A stretch of DNA of 64,000 bases from an archaeon (GTDB lineage Archaea; Nanobdellota; Nanobdellia; Pacearchaeales; GW2011-AR1): the NCBI GenBank assembly GCA_018697035.1, contig JABHSE010000004.1, positions 131,300-195,299 on the forward strand, given 5' to 3'. How positions within the stretch are numbered: the stretch's first letter is position 1; the number at the start of each line of letters is the position of its first letter. Shown here in pieces: positions 2,111 to 64,000 of this stretch. A model generated the notes under the pieces. The model saw only the letters and a list, made by a program, of their open reading frames with translations. It made no database searches and had not been told where the DNA came from. The translations under genes and the position numbers were made by a program.

Positions 2111-2896
2111 ATGAAAGCATTAAGCAAAGAAAATAAGACAGTTATTGGCTATATTATTATTGGGATTTGCCTTGTTACATTTGGCGCTTTAATTATATCT
2201 GCACTGGCCTTAAAGGGAGAGGCTTATGATCCAGAGACTTTTTGCCTGGATGAAGTTTCTGCGCATACTATGATTGTTTTGGATAAAACCGATTCTTTGA
2301 GCACCAGCCAGCAAAGGGTTATACTTAATTACATTAACAAGGAAAAAGATAAATTAAAAACGTTTGAAAAATTTTCAATTTTTATTCTAACTGAAAATAC
2401 TTATGTGAATCCTGAACCCATATTTTCAAAGTGTAATCCTGGAACCGGGAAAAATGCTAACCAACTTTATCAGAATCCCCGAAAAATACAGATGAGGTTT
2501 GATGAATTCTTTTCTAAACCGCTTAAAGAAAAAATGAACAATATGTTATCTGACAATACCGGGTCGAAATCACCAATTTTTGAAATGATCAGAGAACTAT
2601 CGCTTAGAGATGACTTTGGCGATGATGTTCAAAAAAGAACCCTTATAATCATTTCTGATATGATGCATCACACTTCGAAATACTCTCATTATAAAAATAG
2701 AAGTACTTATGAATATTTTTCTAAAAATTCATATGCATATGAAGTCGGGGCCAACCTGAATGCTGTAAACGTAAAAATTGTTTATCTGTTTCGGGATAAA
2801 TTGGTACCTTTTCAGGGGAAACGGCATTTGTCGTTTTGGAAAGATTATTTTGAAAATATGGGAGCAGAAGTGGCAGAGGTGAGGAAGGTCAGATGA
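2111..2896 (+). CDS. N-terminally membrane-anchored protein with a possible vWA-like (Rossmannoid, MIDAS-like DxTxS) domain
   Basis: 261-aa ORF with a GGAGG RBS and TM helix VIGYIIIGICLVTFGALIISALAL. It continues with a beta-strand plus MIVLDKTDSLS (DxTxS), and later LIIISDMMH. The vWA assignment is a weak by-eye call. Confidence 0.5.
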   Translation: MKALSKENKTVIGYIIIGICLVTFGALIISALALKGEAYDPETFCLDEVSAHTMIVLDKTDSLSTSQQRVILNYINKEKDKLKTFEKFSIFILTENTYVNPEPIFSKCNPGTGKNANQLYQNPRKIQMRFDEFFSKPLKEKMNNMLSDNTGSKSPIFEMIRELSLRDDFGDDVQKRTLIIISDMMHHTSKYSHYKNRSTYEYFSKNSYAYEVGANLNAVNVKIVYLFRDKLVPFQGKRHLSFWKDYFENMGAEVAEVRKVR

Positions 2897-2963
2897 GTGC
2901 CCGTTTAAAACAACTCTGGCAATCAATAGATAATTTTATAAATTCAAAAAGGCTATAAAAAAT

Positions 2964-3176
2964 ATGGAAACCGAATCAATGACAATTGACATAGAAAGAT
3001 TTAATCAACTTCTTCATGATGTTGCCTTGATAAAAGAAATTTTAGTTGCAAATCAAACTAATACAGAGGGCGAGCTCACTGACTGGGTCAAGAAAGAGTT
3101 GGCGGAAGCAAGACAAATTCCTGATTCGGAAAATATTTCTCTTGAAGAGCTTGAGGAACAAATTGTTGCAAGATGA
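2964..3176 (+). CDS. Putative antitoxin (small acidic protein) of a RelE/ParE-type TA pair
   Basis: 70-aa acidic ORF whose stop overlaps the start of the downstream toxin gene (ATGA at 3173-3176). Confidence 0.6.
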   Translation: METESMTIDIERFNQLLHDVALIKEILVANQTNTEGELTDWVKKELAEARQIPDSENISLEELEEQIVAR

Positions 3177-55912: not shown

Positions 55913-58459
55913 CTATTTCAACCGCTTCCTCAGCTCCCCAACCCTTCCCCTCAAAAATATAGCCCTCTCAAAGTCAAGAAGCTCCGCAGCCTCTTTCATA
56001 TCCGCCTCCAACTCAATAATCACATTCTTAATTTCCGCCTTAGGAATACTCTTAACATCCTTAATCTCAACCTGCTTATCCCGAATCGGCTTAACAATCG
56101 TCTTCGGAGTAATCCCATGCTTCTCATTATAAGCAACCTGAATCTTCCGACGCCTAGTAGTCTCCCCCATCGCCTTCTTAATACTCCCCGTAACATTATC
56201 AGCATAAAGCACAACCCGAGCCTCCGAATTTCTAGCAGCCCTTCCAATAATCTGAATCAAGCTCCGAGCATCTCGCAAGAACCCTTCCTTATCCGCATCC
56301 AACACCCCAACAAACCCAATCTCCGGAATATCAATCCCCTCCCGGAGCAAATTAATCCCAACCAAAACATCAAACTTCCCCAGCCTAAGCTCCCGCAAAA
56401 TCTCTGTCCTCTCAAACGTATCAATCTCCGAATGCATATACCGACACTTCACACCATTCTCCCCCAAAAAATCCGTCAACTCCTCCGCCATCCTCTTAGT
56501 AAGCGTAGTAAGCAAAACCCTCGAACCACTCTTAACAGCCTTATCAATCTCAACTAAACAATCTCTAACCTGACCTCCATAACTTTCAATATCTCTTCTT
56601 CCAACTACTTCTTCAACCAACTCTGGAAACTCTTTATTCCCACAACCAAAATGCTTCCTATCTTCAAGTTCAATATACCTCCCACCCAACTTCTCATAAA
56701 AGAGCTTAGCACTCTTAACAATATGATCCTTATCATTAGAAACAAAAATAATCATCTCCTCAATCCTATCTTTAATACTTTCATCAATCTCAAAATCTTT
56801 AAACTTATGAAAACAACTAGGACTATCCTTAAAAGGAAATCTAGAAGGAGCAACAAAAATCAGCTTCTTTATCTTTCTTTTAGTTTCTCCAAGCCATCTT
56901 GTCAAAAAAACAGCTCCATTACTATGCCCAATCAAAATACTATCCTCATTAACTTCTATTTTTTCAAACTCCTTTTTCCAATCTTCATACTTCGGACAAT
57001 AGTTTTTAGGCATCAAAGGGATATCTATTCTTACGTTTTCTTTCTTCAATTCTTTTCCAAACCAAGTATACCAATTCCTTTCATTTATAGGGCGCCTACC
57101 AGCCTTAATTTTTTCCTTATCCCTAAGAGCAGAGCCATGAACCAAAACAATATTTCCCTTCTCTACCGGACTAATCCTCCGAATCTCAACCTCCGGATCA
57201 ACCAACCCAGTAGGCCGAATAATCTGCTCAACAACCCCCTCACTCTTTCCCCCTTCATAATCTCCAGGAGTAGCCGAAACAAAAACAGCTGAATTACTTT
57301 TCAAGTATTTCTCAAATTCCTTAAACATCAAAGGCCGATTGTCATATGCACTAGTCAACCGAAATCCATAATCAATCAAATTCTTCTTCCGAGCTTTATC
57401 TCCATTAAACATCCCACTAACTTGAGGAATGGTCCTATGCGATTCATCAATAATCATAAGAAAATCATTCTTAGGAAAATAATCAAGCAAACAAAACGCC
57501 TGCTCCCCTTCCTTCCGTCCATCAAAATGCCGCGAATAGTTCTCAATCCCCTTACAGGTCCCAGTTTCCTGCATCATTTCAACATCAAAATTCGTCCTCT
57601 GCTTCAGCCGGTGCGCAATCAATTCATCATCATGCATATTCAAATCAATCTTCAACTGATCCCGAATCTCACCAACAGCACGATCAAAGACCTCCTCCGG
57701 CACAACATAATTCCGAGCAGGCCAAACATAAAAATACTTCATCCTTTCAACCACTTCCCCAGTATTCTTATCAATCTCAGCTATACGTTCAATCTCATCC
57801 CCAAAAAATTCAATCCTAATAATATTGTCCGAATACCCCGGCACAAAATCCACAACATCCCCCTTAACTCTAAACTTCCCAGATTTTAAATCCAAATCAT
57901 TCCTCTCAAAAGTCATTCCAACTAACTTTCCAATAAAATCTTTCCGGCCAATACTATCCCCGACATTCAAATCACACCCCATCTTCTTGTAAGTCTTAGG
58001 GCTCCCCAACCCGTAAATACAGCTAACACTCGCAACAACAATCACATCATTTCGACTAAGTAAACTAGCAGTAGTCGCATGCCTCATCTGCTCAATCCTA
58101 GGATTTATAGCACTATCCTTCTCAATAAACTGATCCTTAGCAGGAAGATAGCTCTCAGGCTGATAATAATCATAATAAGAAATAAAATATTCAACCCGAT
58201 TCTCAGGAAAAAACTCCCGCATCTCCTCATACAACTGCGCCGCCAAAGTCTTATTATGAGCAAGAACAAGAGTAGGCTTCCCAACCTTAGCAATAACATT
58301 AGCCATAGTAAAAGTCTTCCCCGACCCAGTCACCCCAAGCAAAGTCTGCATATTCTTTCCCGATTTCATCCCGCTAATCAATCCCTTAATAGCAGCGGCT
58401 TGGTCACCTGCAGGCTTAAACTTACTCTTCAATTTAAATTTCTTCTTCTCAATATCCAT
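55913..58459 (-). CDS. uvrB: Excinuclease ABC subunit B with an inserted ~200-aa alpha/beta-hydrolase domain
   Basis: GVTGSGKTFT, IIDESH, IRPTGLVDPEVEIR and LVGINLLREGIDIPE..DADKEGFLR..IGRAARN are all UvrB hallmarks. The product is 848 aa versus about 660-670 aa typical. The insert spans residues ~428-628 (nt ~56576-57178). Confidence 0.95.
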   Translation of the reverse strand: MDIEKKKFKLKSKFKPAGDQAAAIKGLISGMKSGKNMQTLLGVTGSGKTFTMANVIAKVGKPTLVLAHNKTLAAQLYEEMREFFPENRVEYFISYYDYYQPESYLPAKDQFIEKDSAINPRIEQMRHATTASLLSRNDVIVVASVSCIYGLGSPKTYKKMGCDLNVGDSIGRKDFIGKLVGMTFERNDLDLKSGKFRVKGDVVDFVPGYSDNIIRIEFFGDEIERIAEIDKNTGEVVERMKYFYVWPARNYVVPEEVFDRAVGEIRDQLKIDLNMHDDELIAHRLKQRTNFDVEMMQETGTCKGIENYSRHFDGRKEGEQAFCLLDYFPKNDFLMIIDESHRTIPQVSGMFNGDKARKKNLIDYGFRLTSAYDNRPLMFKEFEKYLKSNSAVFVSATPGDYEGGKSEGVVEQIIRPTGLVDPEVEIRRISPVEKGNIVLVHGSALRDKEKIKAGRRPINERNWYTWFGKELKKENVRIDIPLMPKNYCPKYEDWKKEFEKIEVNEDSILIGHSNGAVFLTRWLGETKRKIKKLIFVAPSRFPFKDSPSCFHKFKDFEIDESIKDRIEEMIIFVSNDKDHIVKSAKLFYEKLGGRYIELEDRKHFGCGNKEFPELVEEVVGRRDIESYGGQVRDCLVEIDKAVKSGSRVLLTTLTKRMAEELTDFLGENGVKCRYMHSEIDTFERTEILRELRLGKFDVLVGINLLREGIDIPEIGFVGVLDADKEGFLRDARSLIQIIGRAARNSEARVVLYADNVTGSIKKAMGETTRRRKIQVAYNEKHGITPKTIVKPIRDKQVEIKDVKSIPKAEIKNVIIELEADMKEAAELLDFERAIFLRGRVGELRKRLK

Positions 58460-58502: not shown

Positions 58503-60065
58503 TCACTCCCTCAACTTCTTACTCCTCAACAACCTCTGATAAGCAATCGCAAACCGATGTGCCTCATCACGAATCTCAATCAAAAGTTTCAAAGCCTTCC
58601 CTCGCCTATCTAATTTAACACCACTAGACCTCCCAGGCAAAAATACCTCCTCCTCTCTCTTCGCAATCCCCAAAACCGGAATCTTCAACCTCAACTCTTC
58701 CAAAACATCCAACACAACCCCAAGCTGCCCCTTCCCTCCATCAACAACAATCAAATCCGGCATCACCTGCTCCTTACTCCCAACCTCTAACCCCGAACCC
58801 CTAACCAGGCGCGAGTACCTCCGCCTCACAACCTCACTCATAGCAGCATAGTCATCATTAACATCCCCGCCCCGAATCCGAAACTTCCGATAGTTACTCT
58901 TATCTGCCTTCCCATCTCGAAACTGCACCATACTCGCAACAACATCCGTCCCATTCAAATGAGAAACATCAAAACACTCAATCACCCTAGGCAAAAAATT
59001 CAAATTCAACTTATCTCGCAAATCCTTAATCTTATCACTATCTCCAAAAACAGCAATCTCAACATTCTTCTTAACAAGCTCAAGCAACTTCATCTTCTCT
59101 CCAACCTTAGGAACAACAACCCTAGCGCCTTTATCCTTAAGAAAGTTCTTCAACCCCGAATCAACATTCACAGGCAAAACAACTTCACGCGGAACATCAT
59201 AGTCCGAATAAAACTGGACCAAAAACTCTTCCAAGAAATTAGGCGTCCATTCAAATTCAAAACTCTGCTTATTCTCAAGTATACCCTTCCGAGCATTAAA
59301 CAAAATAAGGTATACAGTACCATCATGCACTATCCAATTAATAAAATCCTCATCATACGTTTTATCCCTCTCCATCTTCTGCCTGTCTCCCAGTTCTTTA
59401 ACACTTCGAATCTGCTCCCGAATCTCTAGCGCCCTCTCAAACTCCTTATCCCGAGAAAACATCTTCATCCTCTTGTCCAATATCTCAACAACCCCACGAG
59501 TCTTACCCTTCAACACCATCTCAGCACTTTTAACATCCGCCAAATAATCCGCCTTAGAAATATGCCCCTCGCACGGCCCAGAGCAAAGCCCAATATCAAA
59601 CCTCATACATCTCCTCTTAGGCAACCTCTTGCAAGTCCGAATCTTAAAAGTTTTCCGGAGCGCATGAAGCACATAGTCTCTAGACATCCCCGAAACAAAC
59701 GGCCCATAAAACTTACCCTTACCCTCACGCTTCCGAGCAACAAGCATCCTCGGAAACTCATCATCAGTTCTCTCAATATACGCATACCGCTTACTATCTT
59801 TCAAGTCAATATTATATCTAGGTTTAAACTTCTTAATCAAATTATTCTCCAAAATCAAAGCCTCAACCTCCGAATCCGTCACAACAAAATCAACATCCTT
59901 AATTTTAGAAACAAGAATATTTGTTTTAATATCCTCATGCTCCTTAAAGTAACTCTTAACTCGTTTGTCTAGACTCTTTGCCTTCCCAACATAAATCACT
60001 TTGTCTTTAGAGTCCTTAAATAAATAGCATCCAGGATTTTTTGGGATATGACTTAGATTTATCAT
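58503..60065 (-). CDS. uvrC: Excinuclease ABC subunit C, short form (520 aa; apparently no C-terminal (HhH)2 domain)
   Basis: N-terminal GIY-YIG: PGCYLFKDSKDKVIYVGKAKSLDKRVKSYF. The ORF ends at IRDEAHRFAIAYQRLLRSKKLRE, i.e. just after the RNase-H-like endonuclease domain. Confidence 0.9.
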   Translation of the reverse strand: MINLSHIPKNPGCYLFKDSKDKVIYVGKAKSLDKRVKSYFKEHEDIKTNILVSKIKDVDFVVTDSEVEALILENNLIKKFKPRYNIDLKDSKRYAYIERTDDEFPRMLVARKREGKGKFYGPFVSGMSRDYVLHALRKTFKIRTCKRLPKRRCMRFDIGLCSGPCEGHISKADYLADVKSAEMVLKGKTRGVVEILDKRMKMFSRDKEFERALEIREQIRSVKELGDRQKMERDKTYDEDFINWIVHDGTVYLILFNARKGILENKQSFEFEWTPNFLEEFLVQFYSDYDVPREVVLPVNVDSGLKNFLKDKGARVVVPKVGEKMKLLELVKKNVEIAVFGDSDKIKDLRDKLNLNFLPRVIECFDVSHLNGTDVVASMVQFRDGKADKSNYRKFRIRGGDVNDDYAAMSEVVRRRYSRLVRGSGLEVGSKEQVMPDLIVVDGGKGQLGVVLDVLEELRLKIPVLGIAKREEEVFLPGRSSGVKLDRRGKALKLLIEIRDEAHRFAIAYQRLLRSKKLRE

Positions 60066-61447: not shown

Positions 61448-64000
61448 TCACAAAACCCGCCCCAAATACTCCCCAGTAGCACTCGCCCTTACCTTAGCCA
61501 CTTCCTCAGGACTCCCCTTCGCAACAACACGACCTCCACCCTCCCCACCCTCAGGCCCCAAGTCAATAATATAATCCGCACTCTTAACAACATCCAAATT
61601 ATGCTCAATCACAACCATAGTATTCCCCTTCTCAACCAATGAATCAAGCACTCTCAAAAGCTTCTTAACATCAGCAAAATGAAGCCCAGTAGTCGGCTCA
61701 TCCAAAATATAAAGCGTCTGCCCAGTCCCCCTCTTAGCAAGTTCCTTAGTGAGCTTAATCCGCTGACTCTCCCCTCCACTGAGAGTAGTAGCACTTTGCC
61801 CAAGCTTAATATATTCCAACCCCACTCGTTTCAAAGTCTCAAGCTTCCGATAGATACTAGGTACATTCTCAAACACCTCCAAAGCCTCTTCAACACTCAA
61901 ATCCAAAACATCCGCAACATTCTTCCCCTTATACATAATATCCAAAGTATCCCGGTTATACCGCTTCCCCTTGCACTCATCACACTGGACATAAACATCA
62001 GGCAAAAAATGCATCTCAATTTTCTCAACTCCATCCCCCCGACACTTCTCACATCGCCCCCCAGGCACATTAAACGAAAACCTCCCAGGCATGTATCCTC
62101 GAATCTTCGACTCCTTAACCCCACTAAACAGTTTCCGAATCTCATCAAACACCCCAACATAAGTCGCAGGGTTCGACCTAGGAGTCTTCCCAATCGGACT
62201 CTGATTAATCACAATCACCTTATCAATTCGCTCATCAAGCGTTATCTCTTTATGCTTCCCCGGACGAATCTTACTATCCCGACCAAGCTTCTTCGCCATC
62301 CCCTTATACAAAATCTCATTCATCAACGTAGACTTACCACTCCCACTAACCCCAGTTATACAATTCATCACCCCAATCGGAACCTTCACATTAATATTCT
62401 TCAAATTATTTTCCCGAGCACCCCTGATATTAATATATTTATTACTAGCCCGCCGCCTCATCGGAGTCTCAATTTTCATCTCACCCGAAAGATACTTCCC
62501 AGTCAAAGAATCCTTATTCTTCTCAATTTGTTTAGGAGTCCCGGCAGCAACAATCTCACCCCCATGAACCCCAGCCCCAGGTCCAATGTCAACAACAAAG
62601 TCCGCAGCCCGAATCGTATCCTCATCATGCTCAACAACAATCAAAGAGTTCCCAAGATCCCGAAGCCTATGAAGCGTACTAATCAACTTAGCATTATCCC
62701 GCTGATGAAGCCCAATACTAGGCTCATCCAAAACATACATCACACCCATAAGATTAGCCCCAATCTGCGTAGCAAGCCGTATACGTTGTGCCTCACCTCC
62801 ACTAAGAGTCCCAGCCTTACGAGACAAATTAAGATACCCAAGCCCAACCGAATTCAAAAAACTCAGCCGCTCGCGAATCTCCTTCAAAATCAACTTAGCA
62901 ATCTCCATCTCCTTAGAAGTCAGTTTCAACTTCTCGAAAAATTCCGAGCACCGAATAATGGACATCTCTGTGATATCGTTAATATTGTGCTTAGCAACCT
63001 TCACCGACAAAATCTTCTCCTGCAACCGCTTCCCCTCGCACTCAGGACAAGTCCTAGCCCTCTGAAACTTCTCAAGCAACCGACGACGATAGTCCGACTC
63101 GGTCTTCTTATACAACCTCTCACTCTGCGGAATCAACCCCTCCCATCCGTCCTCCATATTCATACTAGCTCCACTCGACCATTTCCCATGAATCGGACGC
63201 TCAGACCCATACATCAAAACCTCGTATTGCTCTTCACTCATGTCACCAACCGGTTCCATAATATCAAACCCAAAACTCTTGCCCACAGCCCCTAGCTGCT
63301 GAATCCTCCAAGAATTATCCATTTTCCCATAAAGCTTAATCGCCCCGTCAACGATAGTATCCTCCTCATCCGGAATAATCAACTCAGGATCAAACTCAGT
63401 CTTAACTCCAAGCCCATGACATTCCTCACAAGCACCAAACGGACTATTAAACGAAAACATCCTAGGCTGCAATTCCTCAAAAGCCAACCCACACTCAGGA
63501 CAAGCCATAATTGTAGAGTAAACATGTAACTTCTCACCAGAGTCCATAACCTCAATCATCCCCCCTTCACTCACCCGAGCCGCATTCTCAACAGCCTCAC
63601 TCAACCGTCCAGAGTCGCTAACATTCACCCGATCAACAACAACCGCAATATCATGCTTCTTATACCGGGCCATCTTAATAGTTTCATCAGTTCTATAGAT
63701 AACACCATCAACCCGAACCCGCGCCCATCCGTCCCGATTCAATCCCAAAACAACCTGCTCATGCGTCCCTTTCTTCTGAGAAACGATAGGAGCCAAAATA
63801 GTCACATTCCCCTCAACCTCATTCCCAATCCTGTCACTAATCCTCTGCGGCGAACTACTCTCAATCTTACATCCATGCTCAGGGCAATAAGCAGTCCCAA
63901 CCCGAGCAAACAACAACCTCAAATAATCATAAATCTCAGTAACCGTCCCAACAGTAGATCTAGGATTCTTACTCGTCGTCTTCTGCTCAATCGAAATCGC
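61448..64000 (-). CDS. uvrA: Excinuclease ABC subunit A, 5' end beyond the right edge of the window
   Basis: LRLLFARVGTAYCPEHG, zinc modules, two ABC cassettes (GVSGSGKSTL, LSGGEAQR/LSGGESQR, YVLDEPSIGLH/YILDEPTTGLH). The frame stays open past the first Met at 63922 to base 64000. Confidence 0.95.
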   Translation of the reverse strand, partial: AISIEQKTTSKNPRSTVGTVTEIYDYLRLLFARVGTAYCPEHGCKIESSSPQRISDRIGNEVEGNVTILAPIVSQKKGTHEQVVLGLNRDGWARVRVDGVIYRTDETIKMARYKKHDIAVVVDRVNVSDSGRLSEAVENAARVSEGGMIEVMDSGEKLHVYSTIMACPECGLAFEELQPRMFSFNSPFGACEECHGLGVKTEFDPELIIPDEEDTIVDGAIKLYGKMDNSWRIQQLGAVGKSFGFDIMEPVGDMSEEQYEVLMYGSERPIHGKWSSGASMNMEDGWEGLIPQSERLYKKTESDYRRRLLEKFQRARTCPECEGKRLQEKILSVKVAKHNINDITEMSIIRCSEFFEKLKLTSKEMEIAKLILKEIRERLSFLNSVGLGYLNLSRKAGTLSGGEAQRIRLATQIGANLMGVMYVLDEPSIGLHQRDNAKLISTLHRLRDLGNSLIVVEHDEDTIRAADFVVDIGPGAGVHGGEIVAAGTPKQIEKNKDSLTGKYLSGEMKIETPMRRRASNKYINIRGARENNLKNINVKVPIGVMNCITGVSGSGKSTLMNEILYKGMAKKLGRDSKIRPGKHKEITLDERIDKVIVINQSPIGKTPRSNPATYVGVFDEIRKLFSGVKESKIRGYMPGRFSFNVPGGRCEKCRGDGVEKIEMHFLPDVYVQCDECKGKRYNRDTLDIMYKGKNVADVLDLSVEEALEVFENVPSIYRKLETLKRVGLEYIKLGQSATTLSGGESQRIKLTKELAKRGTGQTLYILDEPTTGLHFADVKKLLRVLDSLVEKGNTMVVIEHNLDVVKSADYIIDLGPEGGEGGGRVVAKGSPEEVAKVRASATGEYLGRVL

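What the first reader, a model, noticed from the sequence alone, without database searches (positions are those of the whole stretch)
56576..57178. UvrB carries a ~200-aa alpha/beta-hydrolase (YdeN/RBBP9-like) domain inserted between its helicase lobes
- UvrB motifs are collinear with canonical UvrB up to ...IRPTGLVDPEVEIR. They resume at ...GQVRDCLVEIDKAVKSGSRVLLTTLTKRMAEEL.
- In between lie about 200 extra residues:
  - IVLVHGS..;
  - the nucleophile elbow ILIGHSNGAVF;
  - a later SNDKDHIV (Asp);
  - DRKHFG (His).
- These elements fit a Ser-Asp-His hydrolase of the small YdeN/RBBP9 serine-hydrolase type.
- The insert does not start with Cys/Ser/Thr or end in His-Asn, so it is not an intein.
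- I do not know of a described catalytically plausible hydrolase embedded in a nucleotide-excision-repair helicase. It could add a new activity, such as deacylation or protein-adduct removal, or simply be a tolerated insertion.
Basis: partly seen in the sequence, partly recalled or inferred. Interest (0 to 1): 0.6.

Follow-up and report, generated by a model that had tools for sequence, protein, structure and literature searches.

The report
Swappable esterase cassette nested inside UvrB
The DNA-repair helicase UvrB of this tiny DPANN archaeon carries a complete small serine-hydrolase enzyme in the hinge between its two motor lobes, and relatives show this is an exchangeable in-frame enzyme cassette, usually lodged in or beside the leucyl-tRNA synthetase gene, not a new repair activity.

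Summary
uvrB (window 55913-58459, minus strand, 848 aa) is an intact UvrB. A 202-residue insert (aa 428-629) sits exactly in the 3-residue linker between its two RecA-like lobes.

The insert is a full PF06821 (RBBP9/YdeN) serine hydrolase:
- It scores above Pfam's cut-off.
- The AlphaFold model has pLDDT 86, and the best structural matches are 2qs9 and 1uxo.
- It has the HG oxyanion motif, GHS513NG, His603 and an acidic loop.

- About 90% of the large proteins found carrying this hydrolase subfamily are LeuRS. Other hosts are GatB, PheRS-beta, EngA, DNA ligase and glycosyltransferases, always at an inter-domain hinge.
- Free-standing copies abut leuS in 8 of 10 loci.
- Eleven closely related UvrBs (68-88% identical) hold hydrolases only 27-62% identical to each other. 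For the four divergent ones and P0010, the closest relative found was outside UvrB, in LeuRS for four of the five.
- Other close relatives have an empty, expanded hinge.
- In this genome the UvrB slot is filled and the LeuRS slot is empty.

Best reading: UvrB is a carrier for an autonomous, exchangeable enzyme cassette of unknown substrate. I found no paper describing this.

The parts
55913..58459 (-). uvrB CDS with stop codon, 848 aa (P0001)
   Evidence: ORF list and translation. NCBIfam UvrB equivalogs score above their cut-offs. Pfam finds ResIII, UvrB_inter, Helicase_C, UvrB and UVR.
57179..58459 (-). UvrB N-terminal part, aa 1-427. It holds RecA lobe 1 with Walker A GSGKT 45-49, the beta-hairpin region, the UvrA-interaction domain and DESH 338-341. 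It ends at ...RPTGLVDPEVEIR.
   Evidence: The motifs are invariant in the 38-UvrB alignment.
57155..57178 (-). N-side linker RISPVEKG (aa 428-435)
   Evidence: pLDDT is below 50 at 432-434 in the full-length model. Related slot-bearing UvrBs share the [RGP]IS[PS] start.
56600..57154 (-). Serine-hydrolase cassette core (aa 436-620), from NIVLVHG to EFPELVEEVVG
   Evidence: PF06821 scores above its cut-off. The model has pLDDT 86.4 and pTM 0.86. The Foldseek top hits are RBBP9 2qs9 and YdeN 1uxo, TM 0.75-0.84. P0001 keeps 25 of the 27 positions that are at least 90% conserved in the family.
57134..57139 (-). His441-Gly442, the oxyanion-hole HG motif
   Evidence: Conserved in 100 of 100 ungapped family members.
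56915..56929 (-). Nucleophile elbow GHSNG. Ser513 is at 56921-56923.
   Evidence: Ser is present in 101 of 103 family domains. It aligns with RBBP9 Ser75.
56726..56734 (-). Acid loop Asp576-Lys577-Asp578, holding the candidate catalytic acid
   Evidence: The RBBP9 Asp138 column is Lys577 here and E/D in 87 of 103 family members. The 'SND' subgroup has a loop one residue shorter, with the Asp of SND in every member. The assignment is inferred.
56651..56656 (-). Lys602-His603. His603 is the catalytic His.
   Evidence: His is present in 98 of 100 members and aligns with RBBP9 His165. Lys602 replaces a Gly found in 96 of 100 members. 'KH' also occurs in the divergent UvrB-hosted P0231 and LeuRS-hosted P0005.2 copies.
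56573..56599 (-). C-side linker RRDIESYGG (aa 621-629)
   Evidence: pLDDT is below 50 at 621-627. Slot-bearing relatives share the ...Y[GP]G end before Q.
55916..56572 (-). UvrB C-terminal part, aa 630-848. It holds RecA lobe 2, motif VI QIIGRAARN, the UvrB motif and the UVR domain.
58503..60065 (-). uvrC directly upstream (520 aa)
   Evidence: Pfam finds GIY-YIG and the UvrC RNase H domains.
61448..64000 (-). uvrA, which runs off the window
   Evidence: Pfam finds UvrA_inter, UvrA_DNA-bind and ABC_tran.

Best explanation
The gene encodes a working UvrB. In one clade of Pacearchaeota-like DPANN archaea, the hinge between its two RecA-like lobes has become a 'slot', flanked by flexible linkers. 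Here the slot holds a complete, independently folding RBBP9/YdeN-type serine hydrolase. Its likely catalytic residues are Ser513, His603 and Asp576 or Asp578, with HG441-442 as the oxyanion hole.

The hydrolase is translated as part of UvrB but acts as an autonomous enzyme, and UvrB is its carrier. It belongs to a pool of PF06821 cassettes. In these organisms the cassettes are usually nested in the pre-CP1 hinge of LeuRS or encoded as a gene touching leuS. They have been moved or replaced repeatedly between slots. In this genome the LeuRS slot is empty and the UvrB slot is filled.

Shown here: the architecture, the fold, conservation of the catalytic motifs, the range of hosts, slot exchange and the link to leuS.
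Inferred: that the protein is made as one chain, that the hydrolase is active, that its task is independent of excision repair, and that its substrate is a small acyl or aminoacyl ester or amide by analogy with RBBP9.
The recombination mechanism that moves cassettes is unknown.
For: Architecture and fold. In the full-length model both UvrB lobes and the hydrolase are confident, and only the two linkers and known flexible loops fall below pLDDT 50.

Constraint: P0001 keeps 25 of the 27 positions that are at least 90% conserved across 103 family domains.

Host range: of 71 large proteins carrying this subfamily, about 63 are LeuRS and 4 besides this one are UvrB. Other hosts are PheRS-beta and GT4, GatB, EngA, GT2 and YdjC, and DNA ligase. 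Wherever the flanking domains could be mapped, the site is an inter-domain hinge.

Exchange within the UvrB slot:
- Slot-bearing UvrBs form a clade with 100/100 support.
- Their host parts are 68-88% identical, but their inserts are only 27-62% identical.
- For the divergent inserts and P0010, the closest relative found was outside UvrB: P0251 is 64% identical to a LeuRS insert, P0010 71% to the G003 LeuRS insert, and P0231 54-55% to a free-standing protein and to DNA-ligase and LeuRS inserts.
- The AU test rejects a single clade for six UvrB inserts (p = 1.9e-5).
- Empty expanded slots of +6 to +23 residues occur in equally close UvrBs.

Complementarity: G000 has the UvrB slot filled and the LeuRS slot empty, with NUDIX elsewhere in LeuRS. 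The P0003 and P0256 contigs show the same pattern. In G015 the LeuRS slot holds a HAD-like domain. G003 has an empty UvrB slot and filled LeuRS and GatB slots. In 52 of 56 genomes that have the subfamily there is a single copy.

Link to leuS: free-standing copies abut leuS in 8 of 10 loci. uvrB and leuS lie 0.6-3.5 kb apart in G003, G015 and the P0231, P0256 and P0003 contigs.
Against: - There is no biochemical or expression evidence. No reads, transcripts or peptides could be examined.
- For the five same-subtype UvrB inserts alone, a single origin is not rejected (p-AU 0.31). Exchange is proven only through the divergent subtypes.
- All eleven occupied UvrB hinge slots hold a PF06821 enzyme and never NUDIX or HAD. 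UvrB was also invaded at a second site in another lineage (P0109), and DNA ligase is a host too. This leaves some room for a link to DNA repair.
- This copy has Lys where 96 of 100 members have Gly before the catalytic His. It also has Lys at the RBBP9 Asp138 column.
- One relative (P0231/G150) has both the UvrB and LeuRS slots filled.
- No flanking repeats, recombinase or other mobility signature lie at the insert in this window.
Confidence: 0.65

Rival explanations
1. The hydrolase is functionally integrated with nucleotide-excision repair. UvrB would deliver it to lesions, where it hydrolyses an ester- or amide-linked adduct such as a protein-DNA or peptide-DNA crosslink remnant.
For: All 11 occupied UvrB hinge slots carry a PF06821 enzyme, of at least five subtypes, and never another cassette type. 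A second, independent site in a distant UvrB also carries one (P0109). A same-genus DNA ligase carries one between its adenylation and OB domains. An earlier scan note (e1-3358399) reports a Patescibacteria UvrB with enzymes at the same hinge; I did not check it.
Against: About 90% of the hosts are LeuRS, and others are GatB, PheRS, EngA and glycosyltransferases. Free-standing copies sit beside leuS, not beside uvr genes. Equally close UvrBs have an empty slot or no slot. Only 56 of 301 genomes of the order have the subfamily at all. The low-confidence linkers and a pTM of 0.64 suggest a loosely tethered domain.
Confidence: 0.12
2. The insert is a tolerated passenger with no current function. 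It would be either a selfish in-frame hitch-hiker or a copy that is losing activity.
For: Lys602 replaces a nearly invariant Gly, and Lys577 sits at the usual acid column. The insert is lost or absent in close relatives. The insert evolves several times faster than the host: 47-55% identity for the same-subtype inserts against 72-85% for their hosts. GC3 is 0.285 in the insert against 0.41-0.52 in the flanking uvrB sequence.
Against: The frame is intact over 202 codons. P0001 keeps 25 of 27 family-conserved positions, including HG, GHSxG, His and the EFPEL motif. The fold prediction is confident. 'KH' and the 'SND' loop recur in other intact family members. The GC3 value is ordinary for this genome: 25% of windows are as low.
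Confidence: 0.15
3. The insert is removed before the mature protein forms, as an intein-like element or as an archaeal BHB-type mRNA intron.
For: Presence and absence are polymorphic at one precise site. Related UvrBs do carry real inteins.
Against: There is no Hint or intein domain in the insert. It has no Cys/Ser/Thr at its start, no His-Asn at its end, and no nucleophile at +1. The relatives' inteins lie N-terminal of the UvrB interaction domain, not at the hinge. The insert is in frame and stop-free in all 11 UvrBs and all LeuRS hosts seen, which an intron would not require. I did not search for a BHB motif.
Confidence: 0.03
4. The insert is an assembly chimera.
For: Two other assemblies break a contig inside the insert (P0098). 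One cluster member, P0099, has a foreign N-terminus.
Against: The identical 848-aa protein is recorded on 12 contigs from several sources, one of them 784 kb long. Ten other related UvrBs from other samples have the same architecture with diverged sequence.
Confidence: 0.01

Closest known systems
Canonical UvrB (UvrABC excinuclease helicase subunit; NCBIfam NF003673 / TIGR00631)
   Same: The host parts match the equivalog models above their cut-offs. Walker A, DESH, motif VI, the UvrA-interaction domain and the UVR domain are all present. uvrC and uvrA are adjacent.
   Different: A 202-residue enzyme domain replaces the 3-residue linker (RP-xxx-Q) between the two RecA-like lobes. I found no paper describing a UvrB with an embedded enzyme.
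RBBP9 (human; PDB 2qs9, 7oex, 9fcr) and YdeN (B. subtilis; 1uxo), Pfam PF06821
   Same: The small alpha/beta-hydrolase fold matches (TM 0.75-0.84). So do the HG motif, the GHSxG nucleophile elbow and the catalytic His. RBBP9 is a serine aminopeptidase that needs a free alpha-amine on its substrate (PMC8866121).
   Different: Sequence identity is only 18-22%. The acid position is shifted. RBBP9's amine-anchoring Glu108 falls in this family's most variable loop, so substrate specificity cannot be transferred. Here the enzyme is nested inside another protein instead of free-standing.
Nested (domain-insertion) architectures, e.g. the CP1 editing domain in LeuRS; survey in Protein Sci 2026, PMC13114784
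   Same: One folded domain interrupts another at a surface loop or hinge, with flexible linkers (for context).
   Different: Classical inserted domains are fixed and functionally coupled to their host. This guest is also a free-standing gene. It occurs in many unrelated hosts, and it is gained, lost and replaced among hosts that are 80-88% identical.
Inteins (present in related UvrBs P0287 and P0293)
   Same: Both are in-frame insertions in a conserved housekeeping gene, polymorphic among relatives.
   Different: There is no Hint domain and no splicing residues. The site is different: a hinge, not a catalytic motif. The insert is an enzyme with its own conserved active site.

Membership tests
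UvrB (excinuclease ABC subunit B) | Full-length match to the curated equivalog model above its cut-off | tested here: met
   NF003673 scores 951.7 bits against a cut-off of 743. TIGR00631 scores 917.5 against 750.1. The match falls in two stretches on either side of the insert.
UvrB (excinuclease ABC subunit B) | Helicase motifs (Walker A GSGKT, DESH, motif VI), the UvrA-interaction domain and the C-terminal UVR domain | tested here: met
   Pfam finds UvrB_inter, Helicase_C, UvrB and UVR. G45-T49, D338-H341 and Q736-R743 are invariant columns in the 38-UvrB alignment.
UvrB (excinuclease ABC subunit B) | Genomic partners uvrA and uvrC | tested here: met
   uvrC lies at 58503-60065 and uvrA at 61448 to beyond 64000.
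UvrB (excinuclease ABC subunit B) | ATPase and damage-verification activity in UvrABC incision | not testable with these tools
   This needs biochemistry or complementation.
PF06821 Ser_hydrolase (RBBP9/YdeN) | HMM match above the gathering score | tested here: met
   47.1 bits for the insert alone and 43.1 bits in the whole protein, against a gathering score of 22.
PF06821 Ser_hydrolase (RBBP9/YdeN) | Small alpha/beta-hydrolase fold like 2qs9 and 1uxo | tested here: met
   The model has pLDDT 86.4. The Foldseek top hits are 2qs9 and 1uxo, E about 2e-10, TM 0.75-0.84.
PF06821 Ser_hydrolase (RBBP9/YdeN) | Nucleophile Ser in GxSxG, and the catalytic His | tested here: met
   GHS513NG aligns with RBBP9 Ser75, and His603 with His165.
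PF06821 Ser_hydrolase (RBBP9/YdeN) | Catalytic acid at the RBBP9 Asp138 position | tested here: inconclusive
   The aligned column is Lys577, with Asp576 and Asp578 on either side. A subgroup with the same one-residue-shorter 'SND' loop always has the Asp of SND. I could not read the model's coordinates to check the geometry.
PF06821 Ser_hydrolase (RBBP9/YdeN) | Hydrolase activity | not testable with these tools
   This needs an enzyme assay or activity-based probe labelling.
Intein | Hint/splicing domain, N-terminal Cys/Ser, C-terminal His-Asn, and a +1 nucleophile | tested here: not met
   Pfam finds no intein family in the insert. The insert starts RISP and ends YGG, followed by Q. The inteins of relatives lie N-terminal of the UvrB interaction domain.
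Site-specific mobile cassette (integron-like or transposon-like) | Flanking recombination sites or repeats, and an associated recombinase | tested here: not met
   No meaningful direct or inverted repeats bracket the insert in the window. A roughly 40-nt dispersed repeat sits in the uvrB and leuS slots of some relatives, but not here. No recombinase was identified.

The most novel reading that the evidence does not exclude
Ultra-small archaea of this group, and by earlier unchecked scan notes CPR bacteria too, maintain a pool of gene-sized enzyme cassettes. Here these are several PF06821 hydrolase subtypes; NUDIX and HAD-like domains occupy neighbouring slots. The cassettes are repeatedly moved, in frame, between defined hinge 'slots' of housekeeping proteins (LeuRS, UvrB, GatB, DNA ligase, PheRS, EngA) and free-standing genes beside leuS. 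An as yet unknown recombination process does this. It may exploit the closeness of uvrB and leuS, and it leaves empty linker scars. This would be a mode of protein-architecture evolution and gene mobility that has not been described.
Probability: 0.4. Interest if true: 0.85.

Novelty: new variant of a known kind. Interest (0 to 1): 0.6.

Why it matters
Domain insertion is usually treated as an ancient, fixed event that couples two functions. Here there is a natural series of filled, differently filled and empty slots in hosts that are 80-88% identical. The same guest enzyme also occurs free-standing or inside unrelated proteins. This makes two things directly testable: how a whole enzyme gets in and out of another protein's hinge without breaking it, and why genome-reduced symbionts do this. 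It also warns against reading every fusion as a functional link. The UvrB case shows that the hydrolase commonly seen in LeuRS is not dedicated to LeuRS in cis. For repair biology, it shows that the UvrB inter-lobe hinge tolerates a 200-residue folded guest.

Tried and rejected
- Flanking repeats at the insert in the window: only short chance-level matches.
- Composition as evidence of foreign origin: the insert's GC3 of 0.285 is lower than the rest of uvrB (0.41-0.52) but ordinary for this genome, where 25% of windows are as low. This is weak evidence at best.
- Single or multiple origin of the five same-subtype UvrB inserts: the quick tree scatters them, but the AU test does not reject one clade (p = 0.31). 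Rejection comes only when the divergent P0231 insert is included.
- The TR(M/T)NTDEHG linker motif as a cassette recombination site: it is encoded by a roughly 40-nt dispersed repeat found in only 4 of 401 genomes, mostly in intergenic positions upstream of genes. It is absent from this window. It therefore marks permissive loops in some relatives and is not a general cassette boundary.
- tblastn for leftover uvrB fragments in the window: none found, unlike three relatives.
- Look-up of P0097 found nothing.
- Literature searches for UvrB or LeuRS with a nested hydrolase in DPANN found nothing relevant.
- Transferring RBBP9's substrate specificity: its Glu108 falls in the family's most variable loop, so I dropped this.
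Full report
**1. What is in the sequence**

A single open frame of 848 codons lies at 55913-58459 on the minus strand.
- The NCBIfam UvrB equivalogs match far above their cut-offs: NF003673 at 951.7 bits against 743, and TIGR00631 at 917.5 against 750.1. Each match is split in two, with the best stretch at residues 7-429. The second stretch begins at about residue 629, as the alignments to relatives show.
- Pfam finds ResIII, UvrB_inter, Helicase_C, the UvrB motif and UVR.
- Between the halves, PF06821 Ser_hydrolase matches residues 459-605. E is 5.6e-11 in the whole protein and 3.3e-12 (47.1 bits against a gathering score of 22) for the insert alone.
- uvrC lies directly upstream and uvrA follows it.
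- Walker A, DESH and motif VI are invariant columns in an alignment of 38 UvrBs that includes this one.

The host therefore looks like a complete UvrB in a complete uvrABC set.

**2. Where the insert sits**

Same-genus UvrBs of 647-663 aa read ...RPTGLVDPEVEIRP-xxx-Q(I/V)xD.... Here the text is ...EVEIR-RISPVEKG-[hydrolase]-RRDIESYGG-QVRDCL.... The insert therefore replaces a 3-residue linker between the last strand of RecA lobe 1 and the first helix of lobe 2. From my own knowledge of the UvrB structures, this is the boundary between domains 1a and 3.

**3. The insert is a complete RBBP9/YdeN-type hydrolase**

- An AlphaFold model built from 21 sequences has mean pLDDT 86.4 and pTM 0.86.
- Its best structural matches in the PDB are RBBP9 (2qs9, 7oex, 9fcr) and YdeN (1uxo), with E about 2e-10 and TM 0.75-0.84. 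Ordinary esterases score far worse.
- I aligned 103 domains of this subfamily. P0001 keeps 25 of the 27 positions conserved in at least 90% of them. These include His441-Gly442, Gly511-His-Ser513-x-Gly515, His603 and the C-terminal EFPEL motif.
- Ser513 aligns with RBBP9 Ser75 and His603 with His165.
- The column of RBBP9 Asp138 is Lys577 here and E/D in 87 of 103 members. This copy belongs to a subgroup whose loop is one residue shorter (S-N-D-x) and in which every member has that Asp. I therefore infer that Asp576, or else Asp578, is the acid.
- Lys602 replaces a Gly found in 96 of 100 members. 'KH' also occurs in other intact copies.
- In the full-length model (pLDDT 79, pTM 0.64) both UvrB lobes and the hydrolase are confident. 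Segments 432-434 and 621-627, the two linkers, fall below pLDDT 50. This fits a loosely tethered guest domain.

**4. It is not an artefact and not an intein**

- The identical protein is recorded on 12 contigs from five sources, one of them 784 kb long.
- Ten other related UvrBs from other samples share the design.
- Two assemblies break a contig inside the insert.
- Pfam finds no intein domain in the insert.
- Related UvrBs that do carry inteins (P0287, P0293) have them N-terminal of the UvrB interaction domain, far upstream of the hinge. P0287 carries an intein and a hinge hydrolase together.

**5. The hydrolase is not specific to UvrB**

- I searched 5.8 billion proteins with the insert region, restricted to proteins of 466-1484 aa. 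This gave 71 hits at 34-52% identity. About 63 are LeuRS, four are other UvrBs, one is PheRS-beta and one is a GT4 glycosyltransferase.
- Further hosts are:
  - GatB in G003;
  - EngA, a GT2 glycosyltransferase, YdjC, and NUDIX and Ham1 fusions;
  - an ATP-dependent DNA ligase in same-genus genome G158.
- Wherever the flanking domains could be mapped, the guest sits in an inter-domain hinge. Examples are between the two RecA lobes, the two Rossmann halves of GT4, the adenylation and OB domains of ligase, the catalytic and tail domains of GatB, B3/4 and B5 of PheRS-beta, and at the entry to CP1 in LeuRS.
- Free-standing proteins of about 190 aa are as close to this insert (up to 54% identity) as any nested copy.
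- In 8 of 10 loci examined, the free-standing gene touches leuS. In the loci with called gene coordinates the gap is 4 nt of overlap (P0074, P0081) or 1 nt (G027); the others overlap or lie within 150 nt in stop-to-stop frames.

**6. The UvrB hinge is a slot whose contents have been exchanged**

- After removing the insert, the slot-bearing UvrBs form a clade with 100/100 support.
- Among the 120 nearest UvrBs, eleven carry PF06821 at this hinge.
- Their host parts are 68-88% identical, but their inserts are only 27-62% identical. For example, P0001 against P0256 is 85% in the host and 27% in the insert. P0248 against P0251 is 88% and 35%.
- For the four divergent inserts and P0010, the closest relative I found lies outside UvrB:
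  - P0251 is 64% identical to a LeuRS insert;
  - P0010 is 71% identical to the LeuRS insert of genome G003;
  - P0231 is 54-55% identical to a free protein, the G158 ligase insert and a LeuRS insert;
  - P0256 and P0287 are closest (40% and 37%) to the second hydrolase domain of a LeuRS.
- An AU test rejects a single clade for six UvrB inserts (p = 1.9e-5).
- For the five same-subtype inserts alone, the test does not reject a single origin (p = 0.31).
- Equally close UvrBs have an 'empty' expanded hinge of +6 to +23 residues with the same GISP... and ...YGGQ ends (P0249, P0250, P0252, P0253, P0257, P0258, and G003 = P0255).
- A distant UvrB, P0109, carries the hydrolase at a different loop, before VEQLIRPTG.

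**7. Slot states are complementary**

- In this genome, LeuRS has an empty Gly-rich pre-CP1 linker (EISGGSGVRGFGGSGKNIWKVFTTRPDT), a nested NUDIX domain and no PF06821. The only other PF06821 gene in the genome is a distant 211-aa paralogue.
- The P0003 and P0256 contigs likewise pair a filled UvrB with a LeuRS lacking the hydrolase.
- G015 has a HAD-like domain in the LeuRS slot.
- G003 is the reverse: its UvrB slot is empty, its LeuRS carries two hydrolases and its GatB carries one.
- P0231/G150 is an exception, with both slots filled.
- Across 301 genomes of the order, 56 have this subfamily, and 52 of those have a single copy. About 26 copies lie in LeuRS-sized frames and about 26 are free-standing. 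I verified LeuRS identity for only some of the large frames.
- uvrB and leuS lie 0.6-3.5 kb apart in G003, G015 and the P0231, P0256 and P0003 contigs, though not in this genome. That gives an obvious opportunity for local exchange.

**8. Clues to mechanism, none decisive**

- Nothing repeat-like brackets the insert in the window.
- In some relatives a linker peptide NGTR(M/T)NTDEHG occurs on either side of the cassette. In the P0003 contig it occurs both in the filled uvrB slot and in the empty leuS slot.
- This peptide is encoded by a roughly 40-nt dispersed repeat (AATAGCA, then 2.5 copies of CACGGAYNAR, then ATTT).
- The repeat occurs in only 4 of 401 genomes, all of this genus. It is mostly intergenic and lies upstream of start codons.
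- I read it as a small element that lands in the same permissive loops, not as the cassette's recombination site.
- Dead uvrB end fragments lie beside the intact gene in G003, G015 and the P0251 contig, but not in this window.

**9. Interpretation**

The evidence fits an autonomous, exchangeable enzyme cassette carried in the UvrB hinge.
- Its normal association is with leuS. The UvrB copy therefore most likely does the same still-unknown job in trans.
- RBBP9, the only characterised relative, is a serine aminopeptidase that needs a free alpha-amine (PMC8866121). An aminoacyl ester or amide substrate is therefore plausible but untested.
- A repair-linked role is not excluded. The UvrB slot always holds a PF06821 enzyme, and DNA ligase is also a host. 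The host range and the empty slots make this role the less likely reading.

**10. Novelty**

- I found no paper on this. A 2026 survey of domain insertions does not mention UvrB.
- JGI's automatic annotation already labels such proteins 'UvrB / predicted alpha/beta hydrolase family esterase'.
- Earlier notes of this scan describe the same phenomenon in LeuRS and in two other UvrBs. They are AI notes and not independent evidence.
- This window adds four things: slot complementarity, the uvrB-leuS neighbourhood, the decoupling of host identity from insert identity, and the series of empty slots.

Noticed in passing
G000:C3 about 76-79 kb (locus L023), outside the window: This genome's LeuRS has a complete NUDIX domain nested in CP1 (aa 402-530). 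It also has an 'empty' Gly-rich linker (SGGSGVRGFGGSGKN) at the pre-CP1 site, where relatives carry the serine hydrolase.
   Followed up: partly
L038 4262-4288 and 8274-8300; L039 7306-7332; L036 6759-6785; L041-L060: A roughly 40-nt dispersed repeat (AATAGCA, then 2.5 copies of CACGGAYNAR, then ATTT) occurs in 4 of 401 genomes, all of this genus. It is usually just upstream of start codons. It also occurs in frame in the uvrB hinge and leuS pre-CP1 slots, where it encodes TR(M/T)NTDEHG. It is absent from the window.
   Followed up: partly
L011 2244-2747 (G003); L014 about 2857-3039 (G015); L035 5891-6247 and 10895-11197: Dead fragments of the uvrB 5' or 3' end lie beside the intact uvrB in three relatives. 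This suggests past replacement of part or all of the gene by incoming DNA.
   Followed up: no
L028 2369-4726 (G158, same genus): An ATP-dependent DNA ligase carries a PF06821 hydrolase between its adenylation and OB-fold domains. The hydrolase is 55% identical to the one in UvrB P0231.
   Followed up: partly
L012 2436-4415 (G003): GatB carries the same hydrolase subfamily between its catalytic domain and its YqeY tail domain.
   Followed up: partly
L018, L020, L021, L015, L029-L032, L034: Free-standing hydrolase genes of this subfamily abut leuS in 8 of 10 loci: directly downstream in seven and upstream in one. Where gene coordinates were called, they overlap leuS by 4 nt or lie 1 nt away.
   Followed up: yes
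P0287 and P0293 (related UvrBs): True inteins (Intein_splicing, LAGLIDADG and HTH) lie N-terminal of the UvrB interaction domain in related UvrBs. P0287 carries both an intein and a hinge hydrolase.
   Followed up: no
window 58503-60065: UvrC is only 520 aa. Pfam finds GIY-YIG and the RNase H-like domains but no C-terminal helix-hairpin-helix domain. This agrees with another first-stage note.
   Followed up: partly
L017 (JGI contig) and cluster members P0097, P0098, P0099: Two other assemblies of this organism end a contig inside the hydrolase insert. One cluster member has a foreign N-terminus. This may reflect strain heterogeneity or assembly trouble at the slot.
   Followed up: partly
L037 12261-12536: A 91-aa IS200-type (Y1_Tnp) transposase fragment lies in the variable region between uvrB and leuS on the P0231 contig.
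   Followed up: no
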